Shown: positions 8,048 to 60,143, counted from the first letter of the stretch. The stretch is DNA of 64,000 bases from an archaeon 13_2_20CM_2_53_6 (GCA_001915065.1 MNDT01000019.1:1264-65263), one strand, 5' to 3'. Notes: generated by a model from the letters alone, not told the origin. Program-made: numbers and translations.

Positions 8048-8704
8048 TTGACATCTCACCGAGAGGCTCCCAAGATCTCGAAGGACCCTGTGGCTGACAA
8101 TACCGACCTCTACGCCTTCGTCAGCCCAGACAAGCCCGACACCGTCACGATCCTCGCAAACTATGTGCCACTGGAGGAACCCGCGGGCGGCCCAAACTTC
8201 AACGCATTTGGAGATGATGTGCTCTACGAGATAATAATCGACAACAACGGTGATGGAATCGAGGACATCACCTACCAGTTCCGGTTCAAGACGAAGATAG
8301 GAAACCCGGACACCTTCCTCTACAACACAGGACCGATCAGCTCTCTCTCCGACTCGTCATGGAACGTCAAGCAGTTCTACTCGGTCACAAAGGTTCGCGG
8401 ACCGAGACGATCCGGCTCGTCAACCGTGCTTGGCAACAATCTCCCGACTCCACCGGTCAACATCGGACCAAGGTCAACCCCGAACTATACTGACCTAGCG
8501 AATGCGGCGGTCAATACTCTAAGCGATGGGTCGAACGTGTTCGCGGGGCAGCGAGACGAGGCGTTCTATGTCGACTTGGGGGCGAGATTTGACCTGGGGA
8601 CACTCAGACCATTCCAGACTCTTCATCTCATGCTCCGTGGTTGGGATCTGGGCGTCGGCCAGTCGACGCAAAGCGACGATTCTATCCGGCGATGGCGACG
8701 ATGA
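8048..8704 (+). CDS. DUF4331-family protein, N-terminal fragment (frame lost after about 8635)
   Basis: TSHREAPKISKDPVADNTDLYAFVSPDKPDTVTILANYVPLEEPAGGPNF ... GQRDEAFYVDLGARFDLGTLRPF is the hallmark DUF4331 N-terminus. Confidence 0.75.
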   Translation: MTSHREAPKISKDPVADNTDLYAFVSPDKPDTVTILANYVPLEEPAGGPNFNAFGDDVLYEIIIDNNGDGIEDITYQFRFKTKIGNPDTFLYNTGPISSLSDSSWNVKQFYSVTKVRGPRRSGSSTVLGNNLPTPPVNIGPRSTPNYTDLANAAVNTLSDGSNVFAGQRDEAFYVDLGARFDLGTLRPFQTLHLMLRGWDLGVGQSTQSDDSIRRWRR

Positions 8705-10955: not shown

Positions 10956-11210
10956 TTATCGTCCCAGAGTCAATAGTCTACCGAGAGTTGTTGCTTGGAT
11001 CATGCTCTTGCCGCGGTCTCCTCTCCTGACCTCTACGAGTCCGAGGTCAACGAGGCCCTGAGAATCTTCCGCTCCTTGAATATGATAGCTCAGCAAGGGC
11101 TTACCATAGCCGGTCAGCTCTCTGAGCTCCTCTAAGCTTTCCACTTCTCCACCCTTCTTCTGCAATGCGTTTAGGGATGTCCAGCTTTGTCTGTGAAACC
11201 AGTCTGTCAT
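10956..11210 (-). CDS. Small winged-helix protein (possible C-terminal half of a Csa3/HFX_2341-like regulator)
   Basis: LEELRELTGYGKPLLSYHIQGAEDSQGLVDLGLVEV is wHTH-like. It is in the same frame as 11220..11528, separated by one TGA plus 3 codons. Confidence 0.5.
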   Translation of the reverse strand: MTDWFHRQSWTSLNALQKKGGEVESLEELRELTGYGKPLLSYHIQGAEDSQGLVDLGLVEVRRGDRGKSMIQATTLGRLLTLGR

Positions 11211-11219
11211 AACTGAACT

Positions 11220-11528
11220 TCAGCACCGGCAACAACAGCTCTCCTTCTCTTTTCTCAGTATCCCGGCGACCCCCTCCAACACATGGGTCAGAACATCATT
11301 ATTGGGAACGGCATGGGTCTCCACCTCCACCTTCAAGACGGATGATAGGTCCGCGGTCAGCTTCTGCGCGATCTGCTTATCGGATTCTAGATGAATCAGG
11401 TAGAGCTTGTGAACAGGAAGGGTTCTAATCCCGACAAGGACTGAATCTGTGTCCGGTCCCAGAGTGGCGATCTGCAAAGTATGCTTCGGCATTAGAGATC
11501 TTAACCCAGGGCGGACCATACAACTCAC
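11220..11528 (-). CDS. Rossmann-like CARF/HFX_2341-N-like domain protein
   Basis: HTLQIATLGPDTDSVLVGIRTLPVHKLYLIH... resembles the N-terminal domain of Csa3/HFX_2341-type archaeal regulators. The likely start is the internal MPKHTL. Confidence 0.4.
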   Translation of the reverse strand: MSCMVRPGLRSLMPKHTLQIATLGPDTDSVLVGIRTLPVHKLYLIHLESDKQIAQKLTADLSSVLKVEVETHAVPNNDVLTHVLEGVAGILRKEKESCCCRC

Positions 11529-26726: not shown

Positions 26727-27779
26727 TCAGTTCAACGATTCTCCGTTGATCCTAACTCCGACCCTCTTCTCCACACTTCCAATTCTCATCGCCTCCTGTC
26801 GATGCTTCTTGAAAACACGAACAATCCGATCCGCTTGATCATCGGGGCAGATCACCACCATCCCTATTCCCATGTTGAACGTCCGATACATCTCGCGCTC
26901 CGACACTCGTCCCTCCTTCCTGATCAGCCGGAAGATTCCCGGCGGCTCCGGTAGATTGTCCAGATCGGCGCCGAGCCTGCCCAATCCCAGAACTCGTTCC
27001 AGTTTCAAGAAGGCCCCGCCGCCCGTAATGTGCGCAAGTCCATGTATCTCCGCCCTGCCCATCAGCTCTCTCACGGACTTGACATAGATCCTCGTGGGCT
27101 CCAAGAGCTCCTCTCCAACGCTCCGTTCCAGACCAGACGGCTTGTCTCTTAGACCGTGTCTCTTGAGGAGAACCTTTCGCGCAAGGCTGAGCCCGTTCGA
27201 ATGAATCCCCGAACTAGCAACACCAACCAGACAATCGCCCTCCACAACCCGGTCGCCTAGAATCAGCTCTTTCTTCTTGCAAACTCCGGCCGCAAATCCG
27301 ACAAGATCAAAACCGCCATCCTGCGCTAGTAGCTCCGGGACGATCGCTGTCTCTCCACCGACAATCGCCATTCTCGCCTCCTTGGCTCCCTTGACAAGGC
27401 CAACAGCCACTTCCTCGACAATCGAACGGTCCGGCCTACTCATCGCCATGTAGTCTAGGAAGCTTATCGGCTCCGCGCCCGTGCAGATCAGATCATTGGC
27501 GCACATCGCCACACAGTCAATCCCGATCGTATCATACTTCCCCATCAACCGTGCGACGAGAACCTTAGTCCCAACACTATCAGTATGAAGACTCAACACT
27601 CGGCCATCGCCCAGGTCCACAAGCCCTGCATAGTGGCCTATCGGAAAGAGCGGCCAACCAACCCGTCCCCTCCGGGTCTGGAAGGTTGACTCCAGCCGTC
27701 TCGCCAGAACCCGATGTGCCTCCCGGACGTGCCTCGAGTCGACCCCTGCCGTGGTGTAGGTCATCCGAGGCCGGGCCAA
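26727..27779 (-). CDS. purM: Phosphoribosylformylglycinamidine cyclo-ligase (AIR synthetase)
   Basis: LSLHTDSVGTKVLVA, DCVAMCANDLICTGAEP, GGETA, and SSGIHSNGLSL. Confidence 0.92.
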   Translation of the reverse strand: MARPRMTYTTAGVDSRHVREAHRVLARRLESTFQTRRGRVGWPLFPIGHYAGLVDLGDGRVLSLHTDSVGTKVLVARLMGKYDTIGIDCVAMCANDLICTGAEPISFLDYMAMSRPDRSIVEEVAVGLVKGAKEARMAIVGGETAIVPELLAQDGGFDLVGFAAGVCKKKELILGDRVVEGDCLVGVASSGIHSNGLSLARKVLLKRHGLRDKPSGLERSVGEELLEPTRIYVKSVRELMGRAEIHGLAHITGGGAFLKLERVLGLGRLGADLDNLPEPPGIFRLIRKEGRVSEREMYRTFNMGIGMVVICPDDQADRIVRVFKKHRQEAMRIGSVEKRVGVRINGESLN

Positions 27780-28314: not shown

Positions 28315-28515
28315 TCAGTTGAGATAGTCAAACCAGAACGCCGCCAGCTTACACAAGACCTCGCCCTTTCTCGGGATCGTCGACGGCAACACCACATCGT
28401 ACGCGGAGACCCGGTCCGTGAAGATGAACAGCAGCTGATCATGTCCGAGGTCATAGACATCCTTGACCTTTCCACGCTTGAACGGGATTGAGGGATTCTC
28501 CATCGACTCTTGCAT
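28315..28515 (-). CDS. purC: SAICAR synthetase, N-terminal fragment
   Basis: [53 protein letters not shown]. The ATG at 28515 sits right after the purE stop. Confidence 0.75.
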
Positions 28516-33268: not shown

Positions 33269-34558
33269 TCACGTCTGAATCTGTTCTAGCTTTCTGCGGC
33301 GTAACTGGCCGCTGCCGATATCGCGGCGGTATTGCATTCCCGGAAACTGGACAGAGCTTCCGATTGCAGAGTATGCGTCTTTACGGGCCGACTCTACATC
33401 AGGTCCCGTCGCAACGATATTGAGGACTCGACCCCCGGCCGTCACTAGCTCTCCAGTCGAGGCTATAGCCGTGCCTGCGTGGAACAATACTACATTACCT
33501 TGAGACACTTTTCGGATCGTGATCCTGTCCCCGGTTGACGGGGTTGTGGGGTATCCCTTGGACGCAAGCACCACGACCACCGATGCGGAAGAAGCGCATT
33601 CTGGCAGTGACGGTCTTTTGGAATTCTCCGCGATCTCGCGCATGTGTGTCAGTAGCCCTCCCTTGACTAATGCCGCGATGCCCTGTGCTTCGGGGTCTCC
33701 AAAGCGCGCATTGAACTCAAGCAGGCGGGGGTCCTCGGTTCCATGCTTGACTATGATGTTGAGATAGAGTACTCCTTGAAACGGAACGTTCTCCTTCGCC
33801 ATGGCCTCAACTGAGGGATCTAGAATCTTTCGTCTCACCTTGTCAACAATAGCTTCGGTTACCATCAGGACGGGCGCATAGACTCCCATCCCACCAGTGT
33901 TGGGCCCGACATCCCCGTCGAAAATCGGTTTGTAGTCCTGGAAGGCGGGAGCCAGCCATTGGGCCCGGCCTCCAGAGACTGTTGCTGTGAAGCTCGCTTC
34001 CCATCCGTCGATGAACTCTTCTATGACGATTCTTCGAGGTTCTCGTTCAAGTTCTCTCTGAATCGCGGTTTCAGCCTCTCGTCTCTCACTTGTCACGGTA
34101 GTTCCCTTGCCAGATGCAAGCCCATCGGCCTTAACCACCCAGGGTGGGCCCATCCTGTCTAGGGCTCTCTTCGCGACGGCCGCATCTGTGAAAGTCTCCC
34201 AGCGGGGTGTTGGAATTTTGTATCGTGAGCAGAGGTCTTTCGCGAAGCTCTTCGAGGTCTCGATCCGGGCTGCGCTCTTGTCTGGTCCGAAGATGGGGAG
34301 CTTCTGCTTCCGGAACGTGTCGACGATGCCAGCGCCCAGCGGAGCTTCGGGACCGACGACTGTTAGGTCGATGTGTTCTCTTAATGCGAATGAGGCGATT
34401 TCCTCTATGTTGGAGGCGTTTATCGGGACGCATGTCCCGATTTCTGCGATCCCCGGGTTGCCCGGGGCTGCATAGATCTTTGTGGCCCGTGAGTCTCTGG
34501 AGAGTGTCCAGGCTAGCGCATGTTCTCTACCACCGCTTCCGATGATGAGGATTTTCAT
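33269..34558 (-). CDS. purD: Phosphoribosylamine-glycine ligase
   Basis: MKILIIGSGGREHALAW, VVKADGLASGKG, GPNTGGMG, EFNARFGDPE, and TAGGRVL. Confidence 0.93.
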   Translation of the reverse strand: MKILIIGSGGREHALAWTLSRDSRATKIYAAPGNPGIAEIGTCVPINASNIEEIASFALREHIDLTVVGPEAPLGAGIVDTFRKQKLPIFGPDKSAARIETSKSFAKDLCSRYKIPTPRWETFTDAAVAKRALDRMGPPWVVKADGLASGKGTTVTSERREAETAIQRELEREPRRIVIEEFIDGWEASFTATVSGGRAQWLAPAFQDYKPIFDGDVGPNTGGMGVYAPVLMVTEAIVDKVRRKILDPSVEAMAKENVPFQGVLYLNIIVKHGTEDPRLLEFNARFGDPEAQGIAALVKGGLLTHMREIAENSKRPSLPECASSASVVVVLASKGYPTTPSTGDRITIRKVSQGNVVLFHAGTAIASTGELVTAGGRVLNIVATGPDVESARKDAYSAIGSSVQFPGMQYRRDIGSGQLRRRKLEQIQT

Positions 34559-34582: not shown

Positions 34583-36013
34583 CTAGGCCTTCATCTCTTC
34601 CCGGGTCCTTACGACCGGGTCCTTCTTCAAGCCGAGATAGTTACCGGTGACACAGGCGAAGCACATCTCATCTGGCCGGAGCCCAATTCCTTTCGTGAGC
34701 CCCTCCATGTCGTTATAGCCGAGCCCGTCGACGCCTATCTCATTCGCCACCTTCTTGTTCAGCTCTGATATGGACGTGTCTTCGCCGTCGACTCTGTTTG
34801 CCAGAAGCTCTTCGCGTGTGGGGAAGTCGATGCCCATGTAGCAGGGATGGCGGATGGGAGGGAATGTTACGACCATGTAGACTTTCTTGGCGCCAGCGTC
34901 GCGCAGTGCTCGGATTATGTTCTTGCTGCTCGTCCCTCGGACGATGCTGTCGTCGACAACTATGACCCGCTTACCCTCCACTACAGGTTTTATTGTGATG
35001 ATTTCCCGGACAATCTCTTCTCTGCTCTCATCGGTGGGCTCGATGAAGCTTCGAAGGTTTCCCTTCTTTCGGTACCGGTCTTTCATCAAGCCCTCCTCCA
35101 TCGGGATGCCACTCTCCTCAGAGTAGCCGAGCGCGGCGGGCCTGGCAGAGTCTGGGACCGGGATTACAACGTCTGCGCTGAACCGGTACTTGCGAGCGAG
35201 GACTCTGCCGAGCTGTCTACGTGTCTCGTAGACATTATGGCCCTCGATGGTGGAGCTGGGGTGGGCGAAGTAGGTGTACTCAAATGGACAGTGATAGTGA
35301 CGGGGAGAGTCCGCAAAAGTGGTCACTGTAACCCCGTCCTTGTTGAGACGGACCAGTTCTCCGGGCTGCACGTCTCTGACGAAGTCAGCGTGTAGTGCTG
35401 TAAGCGCGCAGCTCTCACTGGCGAGGATGTGGGTCTTGTTTTCCTCGTCGTATCCGAGGCAGAGGGGCCTGAATCCTGCTTCGTCACGTGCCGCCAAGAC
35501 TTCGCCCTCCTTGGTCAGGATCATGAAGCAGAACGACCCGCTCAGTTCTCTAGCGAGCCTGTTGAACGCTCGTGTCCAATCATGTTCCCGTCGATAGTGC
35601 TGGAGCAGTCGGTAGCCTGCCAGTCGAGTGTCGTTTGAATCGTCGAGGATTGGAAACTCGCCGGTTACGAGCGGGTAGAGGTCCTCGGTGTTGGCAACAG
35701 TACCGTTCTGGGCGATGGAAAACTCGCCTTTGATATCCATGGGACTCGCGTTCTCTAAGGTGGTTCGTCCTCGTGTAGAATATCGGACGTGCCCAATACC
35801 ACGATTGCCGGCGAGCCGAAGGATCTTCCTGGCGTTGGCAGCGGCTCCCACGCCGATTAGTCCGAGGCCCTTGACGATCGGCTCGCCGGGAATGGCTATG
35901 CCCCATGACTCTTGTCCTCTATGCTGTAACGCAGAGAGTCCCTTGACGATCCGTTCCGCGACAGGCTCTCCCTTCAGCGAGTAGATTCCTACAATCCCAC
36001 AATGCTCCTTCAC
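34583..36013 (-). CDS. purF: Amidophosphoribosyltransferase
   Basis: The catalytic Cys follows a short propeptide (VKEH-CGIVGI). Also RGQESWGI, VVIPVPDSA, and VVDDSIVRGTS. GTG 36013 is preferred over the track start at 36175. Confidence 0.88.
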   Translation of the reverse strand: MKEHCGIVGIYSLKGEPVAERIVKGLSALQHRGQESWGIAIPGEPIVKGLGLIGVGAAANARKILRLAGNRGIGHVRYSTRGRTTLENASPMDIKGEFSIAQNGTVANTEDLYPLVTGEFPILDDSNDTRLAGYRLLQHYRREHDWTRAFNRLARELSGSFCFMILTKEGEVLAARDEAGFRPLCLGYDEENKTHILASESCALTALHADFVRDVQPGELVRLNKDGVTVTTFADSPRHYHCPFEYTYFAHPSSTIEGHNVYETRRQLGRVLARKYRFSADVVIPVPDSARPAALGYSEESGIPMEEGLMKDRYRKKGNLRSFIEPTDESREEIVREIITIKPVVEGKRVIVVDDSIVRGTSSKNIIRALRDAGAKKVYMVVTFPPIRHPCYMGIDFPTREELLANRVDGEDTSISELNKKVANEIGVDGLGYNDMEGLTKGIGLRPDEMCFACVTGNYLGLKKDPVVRTREEMKA

Positions 36014-36321
36014 AGCCTCACGTCCCGCTTGGGGGTCTAAGCGTGGCGTGTGGATTGTCTTGGAGCGAGTCAGAACCCGGTTTTTCGCTCCAACTGCAGG
36101 ATTGACATTGAGGCTCTTCGCGCTCAAATACAAACATGAATCAATTCCAGGCGGTGTATAGCTCTTTCTTGACACAATCGTCTAAATAGAGCCGAGAGCT
36201 ACCTCTCTGGAAATATTCTCAGGGTTTTATTTGGAGTGCGCTTCTCGCTCTCTATGAACTCGAGTGCAGGTTCTGAGAAACCCGAATATGGCAAGCCTGC
36301 GGAAAGGATTCCAGCCTCCTT

Positions 36322-36676: not shown

Positions 36677-37837
36677 TCACGGAGCGACCTGCATCGTCTT
36701 CTCCAGTGTTCGCGACCATGAATCGGCTACGACGTTCAGAGGAGTCGTTATCATAGGGTCTGACTTTTGTGCGAATTCCACTCTGCTTCCTTCGACTAGG
36801 CCAATCTTCGCAGCCGGAATTCTAGCCGTTCTCATCCGTCGAAGGATCCGGCTGGTGTTTTTCTGTCTCGATTCGAGGATGAATCTTGGCTTCGATTCGG
36901 AGAATAGTAGCTGATCGATTCTGTCTGTCTTGGCTGGGATATCATCTAGGCTGACAGTGAAGCCCTTCTGGCCCTGGATGGCCATCTCTGCGAGGCTGAC
37001 AGCCAGCCCACCCTTTGAAATATCGTGAGCGGCCTCGACGAGACCCGCTTTAACGATTCGGGTCATGGTGCGCATGATCGTCCGCTCCGTTCTCAGATTG
37101 ACTCTTGGGACCTGACCTCCCACCAGTCCATGGACGCTTTCGTAATATTCGCTGCCGCCGAGTCCTGGGAGCACTGTTCCGACAATGAGAAGGTCATCGC
37201 CTTCGCTTTGTAGAGCCGAGTCTATCTTTGGGGTCCTAGCATCTCGTAGTCCGAGCGCGGATATTACTGGAGAGGGTTTGATGGCGGTCCTATTCTCACT
37301 GTCTTCGTTGTAGAAGCTGACCTTGCCACCGACGCATGGGACTCGAACAGCATTCAGGTAGTCTCGCATTGCATGGATTGCTTCCTTGAATGTCCAGTAG
37401 ACTTCAGGGTTGCCGGGGTCTCCGTACTGGAGATGGTCTACAATGGCGACTGGCTCAGCGCCCGATGCGACGAGGTTGGAGAAGGCTTCACTGAGAATCC
37501 CGACCGTTCCCCAGTAGGGGTCAAGGTAGGCTTGCTTGCTATTGCCGTCGGTCGTGATTGCCAAGGTCTTACCGTTGGGTAGACGAAGCACGGCGCTGTC
37601 TCCTTGTCCCGGTTTGATGATGGTTCTGATTCCGACCTCGAAATCGTACTGGCGGTAGATCCATTCCCTGCTGCAAACGTTCGGGCTAGAGAGCAGTGCG
37701 AGTAGTGTCTCATTGAGATCTTCGGGAACCGGCGGCTCGGGAGCCCTAGCCAGCCCATCGAGGTAGGCTGGTTTCCTGCTCGAACGAGCGGCGAGTGGTG
37801 CTTCGGCCACAAATCTTGCCGGAGCCTTCGCAATCAC
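36677..37837 (-). CDS. purL: FGAM synthase II, C-terminal part
   Basis: The second PurM-like half: DPYWGTVGILSEAFSNLVASGAEP, VGGKVSFYNE, and AAHDISKGGLAVSLAEM. The in-frame upstream codons KLTRILDKWELGYSRIGRV also belong to PurL. Confidence 0.88.
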   Translation of the reverse strand: MIAKAPARFVAEAPLAARSSRKPAYLDGLARAPEPPVPEDLNETLLALLSSPNVCSREWIYRQYDFEVGIRTIIKPGQGDSAVLRLPNGKTLAITTDGNSKQAYLDPYWGTVGILSEAFSNLVASGAEPVAIVDHLQYGDPGNPEVYWTFKEAIHAMRDYLNAVRVPCVGGKVSFYNEDSENRTAIKPSPVISALGLRDARTPKIDSALQSEGDDLLIVGTVLPGLGGSEYYESVHGLVGGQVPRVNLRTERTIMRTMTRIVKAGLVEAAHDISKGGLAVSLAEMAIQGQKGFTVSLDDIPAKTDRIDQLLFSESKPRFILESRQKNTSRILRRMRTARIPAAKIGLVEGSRVEFAQKSDPMITTPLNVVADSWSRTLEKTMQVAP

Positions 37838-37933
37838 TTCTTGTCCGCGCCTGATGAGTAATATCCCGTCTCTAGTGACGCGTCCGATGCGAGAGTAGCC
37901 GAGCTCCCACTTGTCAAGAATCCGCGTGAGCTT

Positions 37934-38656
37934 TTACTCGTCGGCGGCTCGGACAACGAGTATCATTCTCTCCTGGGACTCGCTAATCATGACCTCAGAG
38001 GGGGGCATCCCTGGCTCACGAGTCCGCAGATTGTCCAAGTCGATCTCCACGCCTGTTCCTCCCTTGGCCGCCATCTCCGACAGTCCACATGTTAGACCTC
38101 CACCGCCGAGGTCTTTCATTCCCTGAACAAGGCCCGCGTCAACGGCCTCGAGGACCGCTTCAATGATCAGTTTCTTGATGAACGGATCAGGAACCTGGAC
38201 AGCGGATCTCTCGGTGTCCGACTTTTCGCTCAGGGTTCGACTGGCGAAGCTGGCCCCGCGAATCCCATCGCGACCCGTGCTGCCACCGACAACATAAACT
38301 GAATCGCCAGGGTGACGGGCTTCTGCAAGGACAAGCTTGTTCTTGCGGCCGAGTCCGAGGCAGACGACATCCACCAGACAGTTCCTCTCGAAGGACTGGT
38401 CGAATTCCAATTCTCCTCCAACGGTTGGAACCCCTATGCAGTTTCCATAATCGCCTATTCCCCGGACGACATTGTCGAAGAGCCAGCGGCTGTGGCTGCT
38501 GTTGAGGCTGCCGAATCGTAGAGGGTCGAGTAGCGCGATGGGCCGAGTTCCTAGCGCGAGAATGTCTCTAACGACACCTCCAACGCCGGTGGCGGCACCG
38601 CCGTAGGGGTCTATGGCGCTGGGGTGATTGTGAGACTCGATGTGTAGTGTTGCCAC
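37934..38656 (-). CDS. purL: FGAM synthase II, N-terminal/central part
   Basis: [73 protein letters not shown], and [12 protein letters not shown]. It ends at a TAA in frame with 36677..37837. Confidence 0.88.
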
Positions 38657-38777
38657 CCAGCCGTTGCCGAGGTTGATGACTCCGGCATCATATCCGGGTC
38701 CGACAAGGACCCTAGCTTCTTGACGGCGTAACGAATCTCCTCGTCGGTCAGATTCGGCTTTTGAACTTGGACGACGG

Positions 38778-38981
38778 TCACTCCGTCTCCTCCCGTGCCT
38801 TGAACATCAGTAGGACGGTTCGCGAGCCTACTATGGCTCCGGCGATGAATCCGATTACGAATCCGAGAATGCTCGCAAACAACCAGCTGATGTAACCTGC
38901 CGCGACTCCGGCGATCAGTCCGGCAAGGATGGCTCGTGGCATCGGGCTGGGCTTTCGGATCTCGCTGTTTGAATCGCTCAT
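38778..38981 (-). CDS. Tiny 2-TM protein (67 aa) inside the pur operon
   Basis: 4-nt overlaps with both neighbours. Confidence 0.5.
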
Positions 38982-39172
38982 TCCTTCACATCCTTCTTGA
39001 GGATGAGCGAGAGACCGAGGGCTATCATGACTGCACCGTAACCTGCTGGCCCGAAGGCGCCTATCCCAAAATAGAAGCTGGTGACGGGAAGACTGATCAG
39101 CGATACTACGCCGAGGGTTATGGCAAAAACGCCGAGAACTATGCGCTTTTTGGAACGAGAGGGCTGGCTCAT
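38978..39172 (-). CDS. Tiny 2-TM protein (64 aa) inside the pur operon
   Basis: ATGA overlaps with both neighbours. Confidence 0.5.
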   Translation of the reverse strand: MSQPSRSKKRIVLGVFAITLGVVSLISLPVTSFYFGIGAFGPAGYGAVMIALGLSLILKKDVKE

Positions 39173-39426
39173 CTTGCGGGTCGACTCTTCTCGATTCTGA
39201 AGAAGTAGAGGGTTACTGTGATTAGTGCTCCTCCAGCGAATCCCAGGAAGAAGCCTTGTGTTGTGTTGGGGCTTGTTATGAGACCAACTATCAGTCCTGC
39301 GATTAGTCCCACGACGATGATTCCGAATATCGATACGCGAGGCCTCTGACTACTTCCTCCAAGAGCTTTCTCCTGGATCTCAGCGAGAAGCGTCTTGTCC
39401 AAGTAACTAGTCAGCGCTTTACGCAC
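39169..39426 (-). CDS. Small 2-TM protein (85 aa) inside the pur operon
   Basis: It overlaps the purQ stop by 8 nt and the next ORF by 4 nt. Confidence 0.5.
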   Translation of the reverse strand: MRKALTSYLDKTLLAEIQEKALGGSSQRPRVSIFGIIVVGLIAGLIVGLITSPNTTQGFFLGFAGGALITVTLYFFRIEKSRPAR

Positions 39427-40132
39427 CGGCCGGGTTCAGTGTTCTCATCACGGAGTCAAAGATCATTCTGCCATCGTCTCGACCGTCTGGTGAAAGAACG
39501 CGGAGCGAGGCTCTCTCCGGATGAGGCATGAGTCCCATGACATTTCCTTTCTCATTGCATATTCCAGCAATGTTGTCTATCGACCCGTTGGGGTTGGCAT
39601 CTTCGGTGGGCTCGTTCGCTTCGTTCACGTATCTCATTACGATCTGCGCGTTCCTCTCTAGCTCGCGAATCTCGTTACTGTCAAGATAGTATCGTCCCTC
39701 GTTGTGAGCGATCGGGATCCTTAGCGTCTGTCCTTTCTGGGCTAGAGTGGTGAAGGGCGTTCGAGTGGTTTCGACTCTCAACCGGGTCCAGGTGCAGACG
39801 AAGCGCAGTCCGCTGTTGCGCAAGACTGCTCCGGGTAGTAGTCCCGCCTCTACAAGTATCTGGAGTCCGTTGCATATTCCTAGAACGGGTTTGTTCTGTT
39901 CCACGGCTTCTCGTATGATTTTGAGGCTCGGGCTTGTGGCGGCAATAGCGCCAGCGCGGAGATAGTCGCCGTAGCTGAAGCCACCCGGCAAGACGTACGC
40001 ATCATAGTCGTCCGCTTTGAGATCCTTGTGCCAGACTAGCTCCGCCTTTGTCTTCTCTACTTTCTGGAGAACTTCTAGGGCGTCTAGGTCGCAGTTACTT
40101 CCCGGGTATTGTATTACTGCGACCCTGCTCAT
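39419..40132 (-). CDS. purQ: FGAM synthase glutaminase subunit
   Basis: VIQYPGSNCD, GGFSYGDYLRAG, GICNGLQIL, AHNEGRY, and MPHPER. Confidence 0.92.
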   Translation of the reverse strand: MSRVAVIQYPGSNCDLDALEVLQKVEKTKAELVWHKDLKADDYDAYVLPGGFSYGDYLRAGAIAATSPSLKIIREAVEQNKPVLGICNGLQILVEAGLLPGAVLRNSGLRFVCTWTRLRVETTRTPFTTLAQKGQTLRIPIAHNEGRYYLDSNEIRELERNAQIVMRYVNEANEPTEDANPNGSIDNIAGICNEKGNVMGLMPHPERASLRVLSPDGRDDGRMIFDSVMRTLNPAGA

Positions 40133-40139
40133 GAGTCTG

Positions 40140-40409
40140 TTATCCTACGTTTCTGACTTGGCAGGTATGAGCGGCAGGGTTGTATATCCGTAAATCATCG
40201 CAGAGTCTCTTGACCAGATCGCGTGCCTGATCAGGAGAACTGGCTTCGACGCTCATCCGAAGCAGTTTGCCGGCACGTACGTTTGTGACTTGGTTGTAGC
40301 CGCCCTTAATGATCAGGTTATGGTGTATCGTTTCGCCTTCAGGGTCTCGAGCTAGGGGCTTGTTCTCAACGATGACTTCGATTACGTAGGTGCGATTGGA
40401 CATTCGCAA
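40140..40409 (-). CDS. purS: FGAM synthase PurS subunit
   Basis: About 85 aa with DPEGETI and RAGKLLRM motifs, directly upstream of purQ. Confidence 0.85.
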   Translation of the reverse strand: MRMSNRTYVIEVIVENKPLARDPEGETIHHNLIIKGGYNQVTNVRAGKLLRMSVEASSPDQARDLVKRLCDDLRIYNPAAHTCQVRNVG

Positions 40410-40462: not shown

Positions 40463-41404
40463 CTAGCTCCGAACGATTGAAGGTCTAAGTTCTTCCTTTC
40501 GGAAGATGAGGCAGTACTGGTGGTGTCTGTTTCCAACCCAGGCGTTGTAGACTCCCAGCGGGAGGAGAGTCTTGTCGTCTTGACACCAAACCTTCTCGTC
40601 CTTTGGAGTCCAGGCATGCGGCTCTTGAGAAAGAGTCGAGACGGTGTCGAAGGCTAACGGGTACATTCTACCTTGAGCGAAGACGTTGTTGGTGATCACG
40701 GTCAAGTAACCGTTGGGCTTCATCACCTTGTAGACCTCGTCAAAATGTAGCTTCATTGCATTCATGAAGCCTCGGTAGTCTTCAATGTTGCCGATCTCTT
40801 CGGGATTATCGCTGTAATCTGTGTCAAGACCCTTCTCCACCCGTCCCTTCTGACGGATACTGTTCCTCTTGAGCTGGTTCCAGTACGGAGGAGAGGTGAT
40901 GCAATAATCGGCGGGCGGAAATCGCTTCTCCTTCCAAGTCTCTGAGAGTTTCTTTGAATCGGCTTGAATCACTTCGGCCCAACACGTTTTCTTTCTCGCG
41001 GGACCGTCTCCACCTCGCTTCCCGTTCAACGCGTCGGCAACGCGTCTCTTTGATATCTCAGCGAATTTACCTACAATCTCAAATCCTACTCCTGATCTGC
41101 CTGCCTCAACGGCCGCTACGAGGCTGCTTCCGGTTCCCAGAAACGGGTCAATGACTATCTCTCCTCTCTTGGTGAAGAAGAGGATAAACTCACGAACCAG
41201 GGATTCTGGAAAGGAGGCGGGATGCCGAAGCTTCTGGTCGCCTCGGGGTTTGGGTCGATGGACAAACCATGATTTTGTGAACTTGATCCAGTCCTTACCG
41301 GATAATTCGTTGAGCTTGTTTTCTCGAGCCCATGATCTTGCCTTCTCTCCAGATGCCACGCGAGCTTCGACCGTTGGAAGCAGTTCGATCTTCTGCGTCT
41401 TCAA
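40463..41404 (-). CDS. DNA amino-methyltransferase, motif order X/I before IV (SPPY, N4-C or N6-A type)
   Basis: HPASFPESLVREFILFFTKRGEIVIDPFLGTGSSLVAAVEAGRSGVGFEI, then DYCITSPPYWN. Confidence 0.8.
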   Translation of the reverse strand: MKTQKIELLPTVEARVASGEKARSWARENKLNELSGKDWIKFTKSWFVHRPKPRGDQKLRHPASFPESLVREFILFFTKRGEIVIDPFLGTGSSLVAAVEAGRSGVGFEIVGKFAEISKRRVADALNGKRGGDGPARKKTCWAEVIQADSKKLSETWKEKRFPPADYCITSPPYWNQLKRNSIRQKGRVEKGLDTDYSDNPEEIGNIEDYRGFMNAMKLHFDEVYKVMKPNGYLTVITNNVFAQGRMYPLAFDTVSTLSQEPHAWTPKDEKVWCQDDKTLLPLGVYNAWVGNRHHQYCLIFRKEELRPSIVRS

Positions 41405-49331: not shown

Positions 49332-49505
49332 CTAGCTTGAGGTCAGGGTGCAATTATGAGCCGTGGTAGTCGTGCCCGCTGTAGTGGCGGTGCTCTGTTG
49401 AGACGTTCCGATTGTCGCAGAGCCGTTGGTGGTTGCAAAGGCGGAGCCGAGAACGTAGGCGGTGGCACCTGCGCCGAAGCCCACTAGCAGCGTGATCTTG
49501 ACCAT
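49332..49505 (-). CDS. Small anchored Thr-rich protein
   Basis: The MVKITLLVGFGAGATAYVLGSAFATT anchor resembles that of 47980..48489. Confidence 0.35.
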   Translation of the reverse strand: MVKITLLVGFGAGATAYVLGSAFATTNGSATIGTSQQSTATTAGTTTTAHNCTLTSS

Positions 49506-59546: not shown

Positions 59547-60143
59547 GTGATCTGCCGAGAAAAACGCGTACGGTTGGCCCTTCCGGGCCGTAGAGCCAGA
59601 GTAGCATCAAGGGTTTCAAAGGGACTCTTATTCACTCTCCTAACACTCCTAAGCATCGTGCCCGGACTTCCCGCAATTGCAGGAAACACTTCCGCTTCAG
59701 GCCAGATCAATCCGATTCGAGGTACACTCGGCCTAGGAGGCCAATCACAAGGTCCTCTGAAGGTTGGATCTAATCCCGTAACTAGCCTTTCCCTTCCGGG
59801 GAACGTGCTTTCTACCGTCGCCGCCTCAAGCGCTGCAGCAACGGTCCTACAATCGTCACCCAGCAACCTTACTCTAGAAACTCGGGGCTTGGTGTTAAGG
59901 CTGCTAGGTGGCAGCGCTCCGCATGATGAGCTACTGAATCGAAACCATGAGATTCTCAGTTCTTGGTCTACTTGGCGTGTGGAAGCTCAAACGGCTGGCT
60001 CCTGGATTCCTCTAGAGCCAAGGCTGACCAATTTTACGGTGCTCGGAGCTAATGCTAATGATACATACGTGATCAGAACAATGCAGGTAGGGTCTCCGGC
60101 ACAATCTGGGAGAATTGAGGATATTCTACAAGGTGATGCCTGA
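59547..60143 (+). CDS. Signal-peptide-bearing protein. It is either a separate leader gene or the out-of-frame N-terminus of the RHS protein.
   Basis: KGLLFTLLTLLSIVPGLPAIAG signal peptide. Its stop overlaps the ATG of the next ORF. Confidence 0.5.
   Translation: MICREKRVRLALPGRRARVASRVSKGLLFTLLTLLSIVPGLPAIAGNTSASGQINPIRGTLGLGGQSQGPLKVGSNPVTSLSLPGNVLSTVAASSAAATVLQSSPSNLTLETRGLVLRLLGGSAPHDELLNRNHEILSSWSTWRVEAQTAGSWIPLEPRLTNFTVLGANANDTYVIRTMQVGSPAQSGRIEDILQGDA

What the first reader, a model, noticed from the sequence alone, without database searches (positions are those of the whole stretch)
36677..38781. purL carries an in-frame TAA and a 5' deletion/frameshift, in an otherwise intact pur operon
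Two separate lesions are visible.
1. ORFs 37934..38656 and 36677..37837 are in the same frame. Together they read collinearly as FGAM synthase II, but a single TAA (37934-37936) sits inside the conserved linker: ...[36 protein letters not shown]....
2. A GTG at 38781 overlaps the stop of the upstream tiny ORF (GTGA) and opens the expected PurL N-terminus, [24 protein letters not shown]. After KKLG the frame is lost. The block that normally follows (about 35-40 aa including WSEHCxYK) is missing, and the protein resumes in another frame at (R)[14 protein letters not shown].

The options are early pseudogenisation, stop read-through plus a truncated enzyme, or assembly error.
Basis: partly seen in the sequence, partly recalled or inferred. 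Interest (0 to 1): 0.6.

Follow-up and report, generated by a model that had tools for sequence, protein, structure and literature searches.

The report
Broken purL is an assembly artefact
The stop codon and the missing piece in this soil archaeon's purine-synthesis gene purL are really in this record, but other assemblies of the same population have an intact gene, and the missing piece is one of five similar gaps left where contigs were stitched together, so this is a data-quality problem and not gene decay.

Summary
Both lesions are in the window as described. An in-frame TAA sits at 37934-37936. At 38711/38712, 112 nt are missing, which removes PurL residues 25-61 (including WSEHCSYK) and shifts the frame.

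Neither lesion is the state of the organism, a soil Bathyarchaeia archaeon.
- **The 112-nt block:** 13 contigs from other assemblies and Logan contigs of 11 soil runs, about 99.9% identical to the window, all carry it. None has the deletion junction.
- **The stop codon:** 6 contigs and 10 runs read GAA (Glu) where the window reads TAA. The intact gene encodes a 738-aa PurL (TIGR01736, 891 bits).
- **Other private lesions:** the window also has deletions of 125, 115, 118 (in purC) and 108 nt, and two extra G's, in unrelated genes.
- **Contig ends:** the purC junction falls exactly on the first base of a MEGAHIT contig from ENA assembly ERZ27291636. That contig is 100% identical to the window and shares one of its private SNPs. 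The neighbouring contig of that assembly still holds both "deleted" blocks.

The deletions are therefore contig-join artefacts. The TAA occurs only in that same assembly. It is either a low-coverage error or a rare allele, not recoding.

The parts
36677..38781 (-). purL (FGAM synthase II) as it stands in this record: three pieces in two frames
   Evidence: The fragments score 424 and 366 bits to TIGR01736 and align collinearly (profile 51-309 and 313-718).
38712..38781 (-). True purL start (GTG, overlapping the upstream ORF's stop) and codons 1-24, up to the deletion junction
   Evidence: Identical to residues 1-24 of the intact 738-aa alleles P0002-P0004.
38711..38712 (.). Junction of the record-private 112-nt deletion (2-nt GG microhomology). 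It removes PurL residues 25-61, which are most of the FGAR-AT linker domain and include WSEHCSYK.
   Evidence: the block is present in 14 loci (13 contigs); present in 11 Logan runs. The junction is absent from JGI metagenome contigs and the SRA word index.
37934..37936 (-). In-frame TAA where the population has GAA (Glu320). One base differs: + strand A here, C elsewhere.
   Evidence: C in 10 runs, A in none. GAA in 7 loci, TAA only in L084 (ENA ERZ27291636). TAA allele not found elsewhere.
36677..37933 (-). C-terminal half of purL (second AIRS/AIRS_C pair), undamaged
   Evidence: Identical to the intact alleles.
28318..28319 (.). Junction of a private 118-nt deletion and frameshift in purC (SAICAR synthase). 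Window position 28318 is exactly the first base of contig ERZ27291636:k141_1473694.
   Evidence: 118 letters between in 4 runs. L109 is 100.000% identical over 5592 nt, starts at 28318, and shares private SNP 27675.
8582..8632 (.). Private 125-nt deletion at 8631/8632 in a DUF4331 gene, preceded by 6 private mismatches within 50 nt (looks like a noisy contig end)
   Evidence: All 6 covering loci have the block and an intact 478-aa gene.
11174..11240 (.). Private extra G at 11174 (GG to GGG) and private 115-nt deletion at 11239/11240, in an HFX_2341_N-domain gene
   Evidence: 7 of 7 loci and 4 runs differ from the window.
49491..49492 (.). Private 108-nt deletion
   Evidence: split pieces in X1 and X3; 8 of 8 loci carry the block.
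60108..60110 (.). Private extra G (GG to GGG) that splits the RHS/YD-repeat gene
Evidence: absent in 4 runs.
38778..39426 (-). Three overlapping small membrane-protein ORFs (85, 64 and 67 aa) between purQ and purL. They are part of the real operon.
   Evidence: Conserved upstream of purL in at least 11 related Bathyarchaeia loci.

Best explanation
The organism, a soil Bathyarchaeia archaeon of the '13_1_20CM_2_53_14' type, has an ordinary intact purL. It encodes a 738-aa FGAM synthase II, inside a purS-purQ-(three small membrane ORFs)-purL-purF-purD...purN-folD-purE-purC-purM cluster.

The window is a stitched sequence made from short-read contigs of one low-coverage sample, the one behind ENA assembly ERZ27291636. 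At each join about 108-125 nt were lost without any N being left. The purL frameshift and deletion at 38711/38712 is one of at least five such joins in 64 kb.

The TAA is a single-base difference carried by that sample's contigs only. It is either an error fixed at low coverage or a rare nonsense allele. It is not the population's sequence and it is not recoded.

Shown: the lesions are private to this record, one junction coincides with a contig end, and the blocks are present in the sister contig. Inferred: which program or step dropped the bases, and that coverage was low.
For: 1. Intact alleles. Four 100%-identical full-length PurL proteins come from NCBI, ENA and JGI. TIGR01736 scores 891 bits against a cut-off of 526.
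2. The 112-nt block is present in 14 loci, and the deletion junction in none. Logan contigs of X1, X3, X4, X5, X7, X8, X9, X14, X16 and X17 show it directly, as contigs split at the junction or loose ends that read into the block; an X6 contig also runs on for 206 letters past the junction.
3. The window carries five private deletions of 125, 115, 118, 112 and 108 nt. Microhomology at the junctions is 0, 0, 0, 2 and 1 nt. They lie in unrelated genes (DUF4331, an HFX_2341_N gene, purC, purL, an unnamed ORF). There are also two private +G insertions.
4. L109 (ERZ27291636:k141_1473694) is 100.000% identical to window 28318-22727. It shares the private SNP at 27675, which 10 other loci lack, and its first base is the purC junction.
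5. L084 (ERZ27291636:k141_1915519) carries the TAA, yet it contains both the 112-nt and the 118-nt blocks and ends 3 nt past the latter.
6. Six private mismatches lie in the 50 nt before the 8631 junction. One SNP and one indel lie within 65 nt of the 11239 junction. This is a contig-end noise pattern.
7. No SRA run or JGI contig holds the junction or the noisy stretch.
8. TAA is a normal stop codon here, ending 5 of 34 long ORFs.
9. Another MAG (GCA_005883755.1, L111) has a different private 209-nt collapse in the same gene.
10. As leads only: earlier notes on other windows of this genome report many frame breaks and a ~40-aa hole in Cdc48.
Against: - No raw reads of the window's own sample could be laid. 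All runs were available only as Logan contigs, which drop rare variants, so the lesions' absence from the source reads is inferred, not seen.
- The contig upstream of the purL junction in ERZ27291636 was not retrieved. The contig-end coincidence is therefore shown for the purC junction only.
- The exact trimming arithmetic is not explained by a simple k-1 overlap rule (L084 loses 235 nt at one end and 121 nt at the other).
- The TAA is reproduced by a second assembler's contig (L084).
- The identity and assembly method of the window's record are unknown to me.
Confidence: 0.87

Rival explanations
1. The deletion is an artefact, but the TAA is a real nonsense allele in a sub-population. Some cells of this Bathyarchaeia population carry a purL-null allele (Glu320 to stop). 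They would live as purine auxotrophs on salvaged purines or beside purL+ neighbours.
For: - The TAA is in a MEGAHIT contig (L084) that otherwise looks clean and holds both blocks.
- L084 and L109 share the window's other private alleles at 37376 and 27675, so a distinct strain or sample exists.
- The window's other isolated private SNPs look like natural variation: three checked are synonymous and most are transitions.
Against: - GAA is the only allele in 10 runs and 6 other contigs.
- The TAA is absent from JGI contigs and the SRA word index.
- L084 has a second odd change, G332D, 37 nt away that the window lacks. That fits noisy low-coverage reads.
- L084 and the window probably derive from the same reads, so they are not independent.
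- G-to-T is the typical oxidative-damage artefact (general knowledge).
Confidence: 0.3
2. All the lesions are real. This strain is undergoing rapid gene decay, including purL and purC, so the purine pathway is being lost.
For: - Three disabling lesions fall in pur genes.
- Lesions are reported throughout the genome (unchecked notes).
Against: - Five deletions in a narrow 108-125 nt band without repeat-mediated junctions, beside only about 8 isolated SNPs in 54 kb, is not a natural mutation spectrum.
- Contigs of the same sample contain the deleted blocks, and one junction is a contig end.
- The lesions hit unrelated genes, not specifically purine genes.
- No junction is found in any other data set.
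Confidence: 0.04
3. Programmed recoding: the TAA is read through or reassigned, and the 5' frame change is a programmed frameshift or a spliced element.
For: Only that the frame is otherwise open and the gene is otherwise perfectly conserved.
Against: - The stop and the shift are absent from every near-identical and more distant relative. All encode 738 aa with GAA.
- 37 conserved codons are physically missing, not shifted.
- TAA terminates ordinary genes in the window.
Confidence: 0.01

Closest known systems
Small PurL (FGAM synthase II, TIGR01736 / PRK01213) of the PurS-PurQ-PurL complex, as solved for Thermotoga maritima and Bacillus subtilis
   Same: The intact allele matches the model end to end at 891 bits. 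It has an FGAR-AT linker plus two AIRS/AIRS_C pairs, and it sits next to purS and purQ.
   Different: In this record the gene lacks residues 25-61 and has one stop codon, and both are specific to the record. Three small membrane ORFs lie between purQ and purL, which is not the textbook arrangement.
Scaffold-join or gap-collapse misassemblies in short-read metagenome-assembled genomes
   Same: - The deletions are private to one record.
- Their sizes fall in a narrow band below read length.
- There is no junction microhomology.
- Sequence is noisy next to the junctions.
- One junction coincides with a contig end of the same sample's assembly.
   Different: No N run marks the joins. The tool or step that produced them is unknown. 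A different MAG of the same species shows a 209-nt collapse in the same gene.
Recent pseudogenes in genome-reducing symbionts or auxotrophic lineages
   Same: A nonsense codon plus frameshifting deletions in biosynthetic genes.
   Different: Flanking sequence is about 99.98% identical to intact alleles. The lesions are absent from all other samples, and contigs from the same sample still hold the missing blocks.

Membership tests
PurL, FGAM synthase II (NCBIfam TIGR01736 equivalog) | Full-length match above the curated cut-off (525.75 bits) | tested here: met
   The intact allele P0002 scores 891.2 bits over profile 1-718. The window's two fragments score 424 and 366 bits, each below the cut-off, because the gene is cut in this record.
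PurL, FGAM synthase II (NCBIfam TIGR01736 equivalog) | N-terminal FGAR-AT linker (PF18072) with the WSEHC motif, followed by two AIRS/AIRS_C pairs | tested here: met
   Pfam finds the linker in P0002 at residues 10-46 and reports two matched stretches each of AIRS and AIRS_C. In the window the linker and WSEHCSYK are deleted.
PurL, FGAM synthase II (NCBIfam TIGR01736 equivalog) | Genomic partnership with purS and purQ | tested here: met
   purS lies at 40140-40409 and purQ at 39419-40132, upstream on the same strand. The order is the same in L001 and L111-L120.
PurL, FGAM synthase II (NCBIfam TIGR01736 equivalog) | Enzymatic conversion of FGAR to FGAM | not testable with these tools
Genuine pseudogene of the lineage | The lesions are present in independent samples or assemblies of the same lineage | tested here: not met
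   The deletion junction is in 0 of 14 loci and in none of the Logan runs laid (X1, X3-X9, X11, X12, X14, X16, X17). The TAA is in 1 of 8 loci, from the window's own source sample, and in 0 of 10 runs.
Programmed stop-codon read-through or reassignment | The in-frame stop is conserved in relatives, and the codon is depleted as a terminator | tested here: not met
   Relatives have GAA. TAA ends 5 of 34 long ORFs in the window.
Contig-join misassembly | The junction coincides with a contig end in the primary assembly of the same sample, and the missing sequence is present in that sample | tested here: met
   Shown for the purC junction. L109 starts at window 28318, is 100% identical and shares the private SNP at 27675, and L084 contains the 118-nt block. 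For the purL junction only the second half is shown: L084 contains the 112-nt block. The upstream contig was not retrieved.
Contig-join misassembly | No source read spans the junction | not testable with these tools
The SRA word index finds no holder of the junction, but this is weak because only 2 words were sampled.

The most novel reading that the evidence does not exclude
The GAA-to-TAA change is a genuine nonsense allele carried by a minority strain of this soil Bathyarchaeia population. That strain would be a naturally occurring purL-null purine auxotroph coexisting with purL+ kin, which is Black-Queen-type dependency caught at its first mutation.
Probability: 0.25. Interest if true: 0.3.

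Novelty: not a real feature. Interest (0 to 1): 0.08.

Why it matters
- **For biology:** it matters little. The organism has a normal purL and a complete de novo purine gene cluster.
- **For anyone using this genome:** it matters a good deal. About one hidden 108-125-nt hole occurs per 10-15 kb, with no N to flag it, along with occasional extra bases. These create false pseudogenes (purL, purC, DUF4331, the RHS toxin gene and, by earlier notes, Cdc48). They would mislead metabolic reconstructions, for example by predicting purine auxotrophy, and they would inflate pseudogene counts.
- **For this scan:** other "broken gene" findings from this genome should be checked against sister assemblies before they are interpreted.

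Tried and rejected
- A second purL copy, salvage genes and the whole-genome lesion rate could not be checked.

**Searches that found nothing**
- SRA word searches returned no run for the purL junction (2 words), the TAA allele (4 words) or the noisy stretch and junction at 8556-8662 (8 words). These are weak negatives.
- Exact-pattern scans of JGI metagenome contigs found no hit for the junction or the TAA allele.
- Exact-product look-ups found nothing on record for window-specific truncated ORFs: the 240-aa PurL fragment, the 84-aa and 198-aa fragments, the 365-aa E-variant and the 103-aa P-variant.
- The look-up meant to fetch the ERZ27291636 contig upstream of the purL junction did not list it.
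- The search for related loci in genome contigs did not return the window's own record, so its name and assembly method remain unknown.

**Ideas considered and rejected**
- Slippage between direct repeats: the junctions have only 0-2 nt of homology.
- An excised mobile element or intron in the window: the missing blocks are conserved coding sequence.
- Stripped N runs as the sole cause: this cannot be excluded, but it does not explain the noisy bases beside the junctions.
- A long-read consensus error: the window matches k141 short-read contigs exactly.

Full report
**1.

On the minus strand a single reading frame runs from 38779 to the stop at 36677. It is interrupted once, by TAA at 37934-37936 (...VVRAADE*KLTRILDKW...). 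The GTG at 38781 overlaps the stop of the upstream 67-aa ORF. It opens [24 protein letters not shown] in another frame, which then runs into nonsense.

NCBIfam TIGR01736 (PurL) aligns to the two main pieces collinearly. They cover profile positions 51-309 and 313-718, at 424 and 366 bits.

**2. What the population carries**

A protein search with the frame read through the TAA returned four full-length PurL proteins. They are 100% identical over the query and come from NCBI (a MAG named Crenarchaeota archaeon 13_1_20CM_2_53_14), ENA and JGI. Hundreds of 738-aa relatives from soil Bathyarchaeia followed. The intact allele scores 891 bits to TIGR01736 against a cut-off of 526. It has the FGAR-AT linker plus two AIRS/AIRS_C pairs.

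DNA of three intact loci (L001-L003) aligns to the window at 99.3-99.9% identity. The one structural difference at purL is that the window lacks 112 nt between 38712 and 38711, with 2 nt (GG) of microhomology. The lost block encodes [37 protein letters not shown]. The codon at the TAA site is GAA (Glu320).

**3. Independent read sets**

Twenty soil-metagenome runs hold this stretch. I laid Logan contigs of 13 of them on the window.
- At 37936, every run that covers the site reads C, which gives GAA (X1, X3, X4, X6, X7, X8, X11, X12, X14, X16). None reads the window's A.
- At 38711/38712, contigs of ten runs (X1, X3, X4, X5, X7, X8, X9, X14, X16, X17) carry about 112 extra letters, or end in loose ends that read straight into the missing block. 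A contig of an eleventh run, X6, also runs on for 206 letters beyond the junction. None spans the junction as the window does.
- Among all fetched loci, 14 (13 distinct contigs) contain the block and none contains the junction. Seven have GAA and one has TAA.
- Exact-pattern scans of JGI metagenome contigs found neither the junction nor the TAA allele.

The caveat is that these are other samples' contigs, not the source sample's raw reads.

**4. The purL lesions are part of a window-wide pattern**

I laid the same runs on the rest of the window and aligned 20 near-identical loci to it. The table lists lesions found in the window and in no other data set.

| Position | Private lesion in the window | Gene hit |
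|---|---|---|
| 8631/2 | 125-nt deletion | DUF4331 gene, intact at 478 aa elsewhere |
| 11239/40 | 115-nt deletion | HFX_2341_N-domain gene |
| 28318/9 | 118-nt deletion | purC |
| 38711/2 | 112-nt deletion | purL |
| 49491 | 108-nt deletion | unnamed ORF |
| 11174 | extra G (GG to GGG) | HFX_2341_N-domain gene |
| 60108 | extra G (GG to GGG) | RHS gene, which it splits (also noted by e1-3521820) |

Junction microhomology is 0, 0, 0, 2 and 1 nt, which is about the chance level. Apart from these lesions, only about eight isolated private SNPs occur in 54 kb. Of the three I checked in genes I could place, all are synonymous (22436, 27675, 37376). Five deletions confined to 108-125 nt, beside so little point divergence, is not a natural mutation spectrum.

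The 50 nt before the 8631 junction hold six private mismatches. The 11239 junction has a private SNP at its edge and the extra G 65 nt away. Sequence beside the junctions therefore looks like error-laden contig ends.

**5. Direct evidence that the junctions are contig joins**

The 386-aa C-terminal fragment created by the TAA is on record in exactly one other place. That is contig k141_1915519 of ENA assembly ERZ27291636 (L084). This contig carries the TAA, but it also contains both the 112-nt and the 118-nt blocks. It ends 3 nt beyond the latter.

A second contig of the same assembly, k141_1473694 (L109), gives three matching results.
- It is 100.000% identical to the window over 5592 nt.
- It shares the window-private base at 27675, which ten other loci lack.
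- Its first base is exactly window position 28318, the purC junction.

The window was therefore built from contigs of this sample, or of the same reads. At least this junction is the place where two contigs were abutted, with about 118 nt lost. The purL junction lies 123 nt inside the other end of L084. Two different samples' contigs (L002 and L084) both terminate at that end, at window 38833, and Logan contigs are heavily fragmented across 37300-38700 by strain variants. It is an assembly break-point region.

I could not retrieve the upstream ERZ27291636 contig. For the purL junction itself the contig-end coincidence is therefore inferred by analogy. What is shown directly is that the 112-nt block is present in that sample's own contig.

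A different MAG of this species (GCA_005883755.1, L111) has its own private 209-nt collapse and frameshift in purL, equivalent to window 38307-38515. Hidden collapses in this gene recur in these soil MAGs.

**6. The TAA**

The TAA is 775 nt from the nearest junction and is reproduced in L084. It is therefore in the reads of that sample, or in at least two k-mer observations. Two readings remain.
- **Error fixed at low coverage.** G-to-T is the classic oxidative-damage change (general knowledge). L084 has a second odd change, G332D, 37 nt away that the window lacks. The two contigs of this sample overlap by only 3 nt at the purC join, which suggests sparse reads there.
- **Rare real nonsense allele.**

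I put about 0.3 on the second reading. Recoding is excluded for three reasons: relatives have GAA, TAA ends 5 of 34 long ORFs in the window, and nothing conserved surrounds it.

**7. What the locus really is**

It is a standard archaeal de novo purine cluster on the minus strand. The order is purS (40140-40409), purQ (39419-40132), three overlapping small membrane ORFs (38778-39426), purL, purF (34583-36175), purD (33269-34558), a HIT protein, a gene Pfam labels AadA_C, purN, folD, a GNAT, MTHFS, purE, purC and purM (gene tables). PurL works as the ATP-dependent FGAR-to-FGAM amidotransferase subunit with PurS and PurQ. That is established knowledge of the family and was not tested here.

**8. 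Limits**

I could not look for a second purL or salvage genes, and I could not measure the lesion rate genome-wide. Notes from earlier readers of other windows of this genome report many frame breaks, a ~40-aa hole in Cdc48/VAT and another in-frame TAA. I treat these as leads that fit the picture, not as evidence. No raw reads of the source sample were available.

**9. Verdict**

The biological interpretations are not supported: the deletion is an assembly or stitching artefact (about 0.9), and the stop codon is not the population's state. Interest is low, apart from the warning about this record's quality.

Two side observations may deserve their own look: a LAGLIDADG intein in purL of a sister clade, and the conserved small membrane ORFs inside the purQ-purL operon.

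Noticed in passing
L016:8540-10003, L018:8534-10003, L059:5288-6757 (related Bathyarchaeia MAGs BA_19, BA_24, 13_1_40CM_3_52_17): purL of a sister clade (about 66% identical) carries an in-frame intein of about 488 aa at the conserved ...DYGN|C(VSGEDLV)...(IITHN)|CIGVPT... site. Pfam finds Intein_splicing and LAGLIDADG_3. The three inteins are only 55-57% identical to each other, so the insertion is old. Two full-text searches found no paper linking inteins with PurL.
   Followed up: partly
window 38778-39426 (- strand): Three overlapping small ORFs (85, 64 and 67 aa) lie between purQ and purL. Each has predicted membrane-spanning stretches, and they are chained by overlapping stop and start codons. 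The 64- and 67-aa ORFs are conserved directly upstream of purL in at least 11 Bathyarchaeia loci, down to about 40-45% identity. Their function is unknown, and small membrane proteins are unusual inside a purine operon.
   Followed up: partly
window 28318/28319 (purC), 8631/8632 (DUF4331), 11174 and 11239/11240 (HFX_2341_N gene), 49491, 60108 (RHS gene): Private deletions of 118, 125, 115 and 108 nt and two private extra G's. All are absent from every other assembly of this population. They create false pseudogenes throughout the window.
   Followed up: yes
L111:4729/4730 (GCA_005883755.1, VBBI01000023.1): A different public MAG of the same species has its own private 209-nt deletion and frameshift in purL, equivalent to window 38307-38515. 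It falls inside the stretch where the population has several haplotypes and Logan contigs fragment.
   Followed up: partly
window 38288-38443 and 37880-37925: purL is strongly strain-polymorphic here. At least three haplotypes coexist in single soil runs, and the window is a mosaic of them (private combination at 38324, 38329, 38342 and 38366).
   Followed up: no
window 40463-41404 (- strand): An N6/N4 DNA methyltransferase gene (PF01555), with no obvious restriction partner, sits directly upstream of purS. It overlaps a metallophosphoesterase gene. The arrangement is conserved in all near-identical loci.
   Followed up: no
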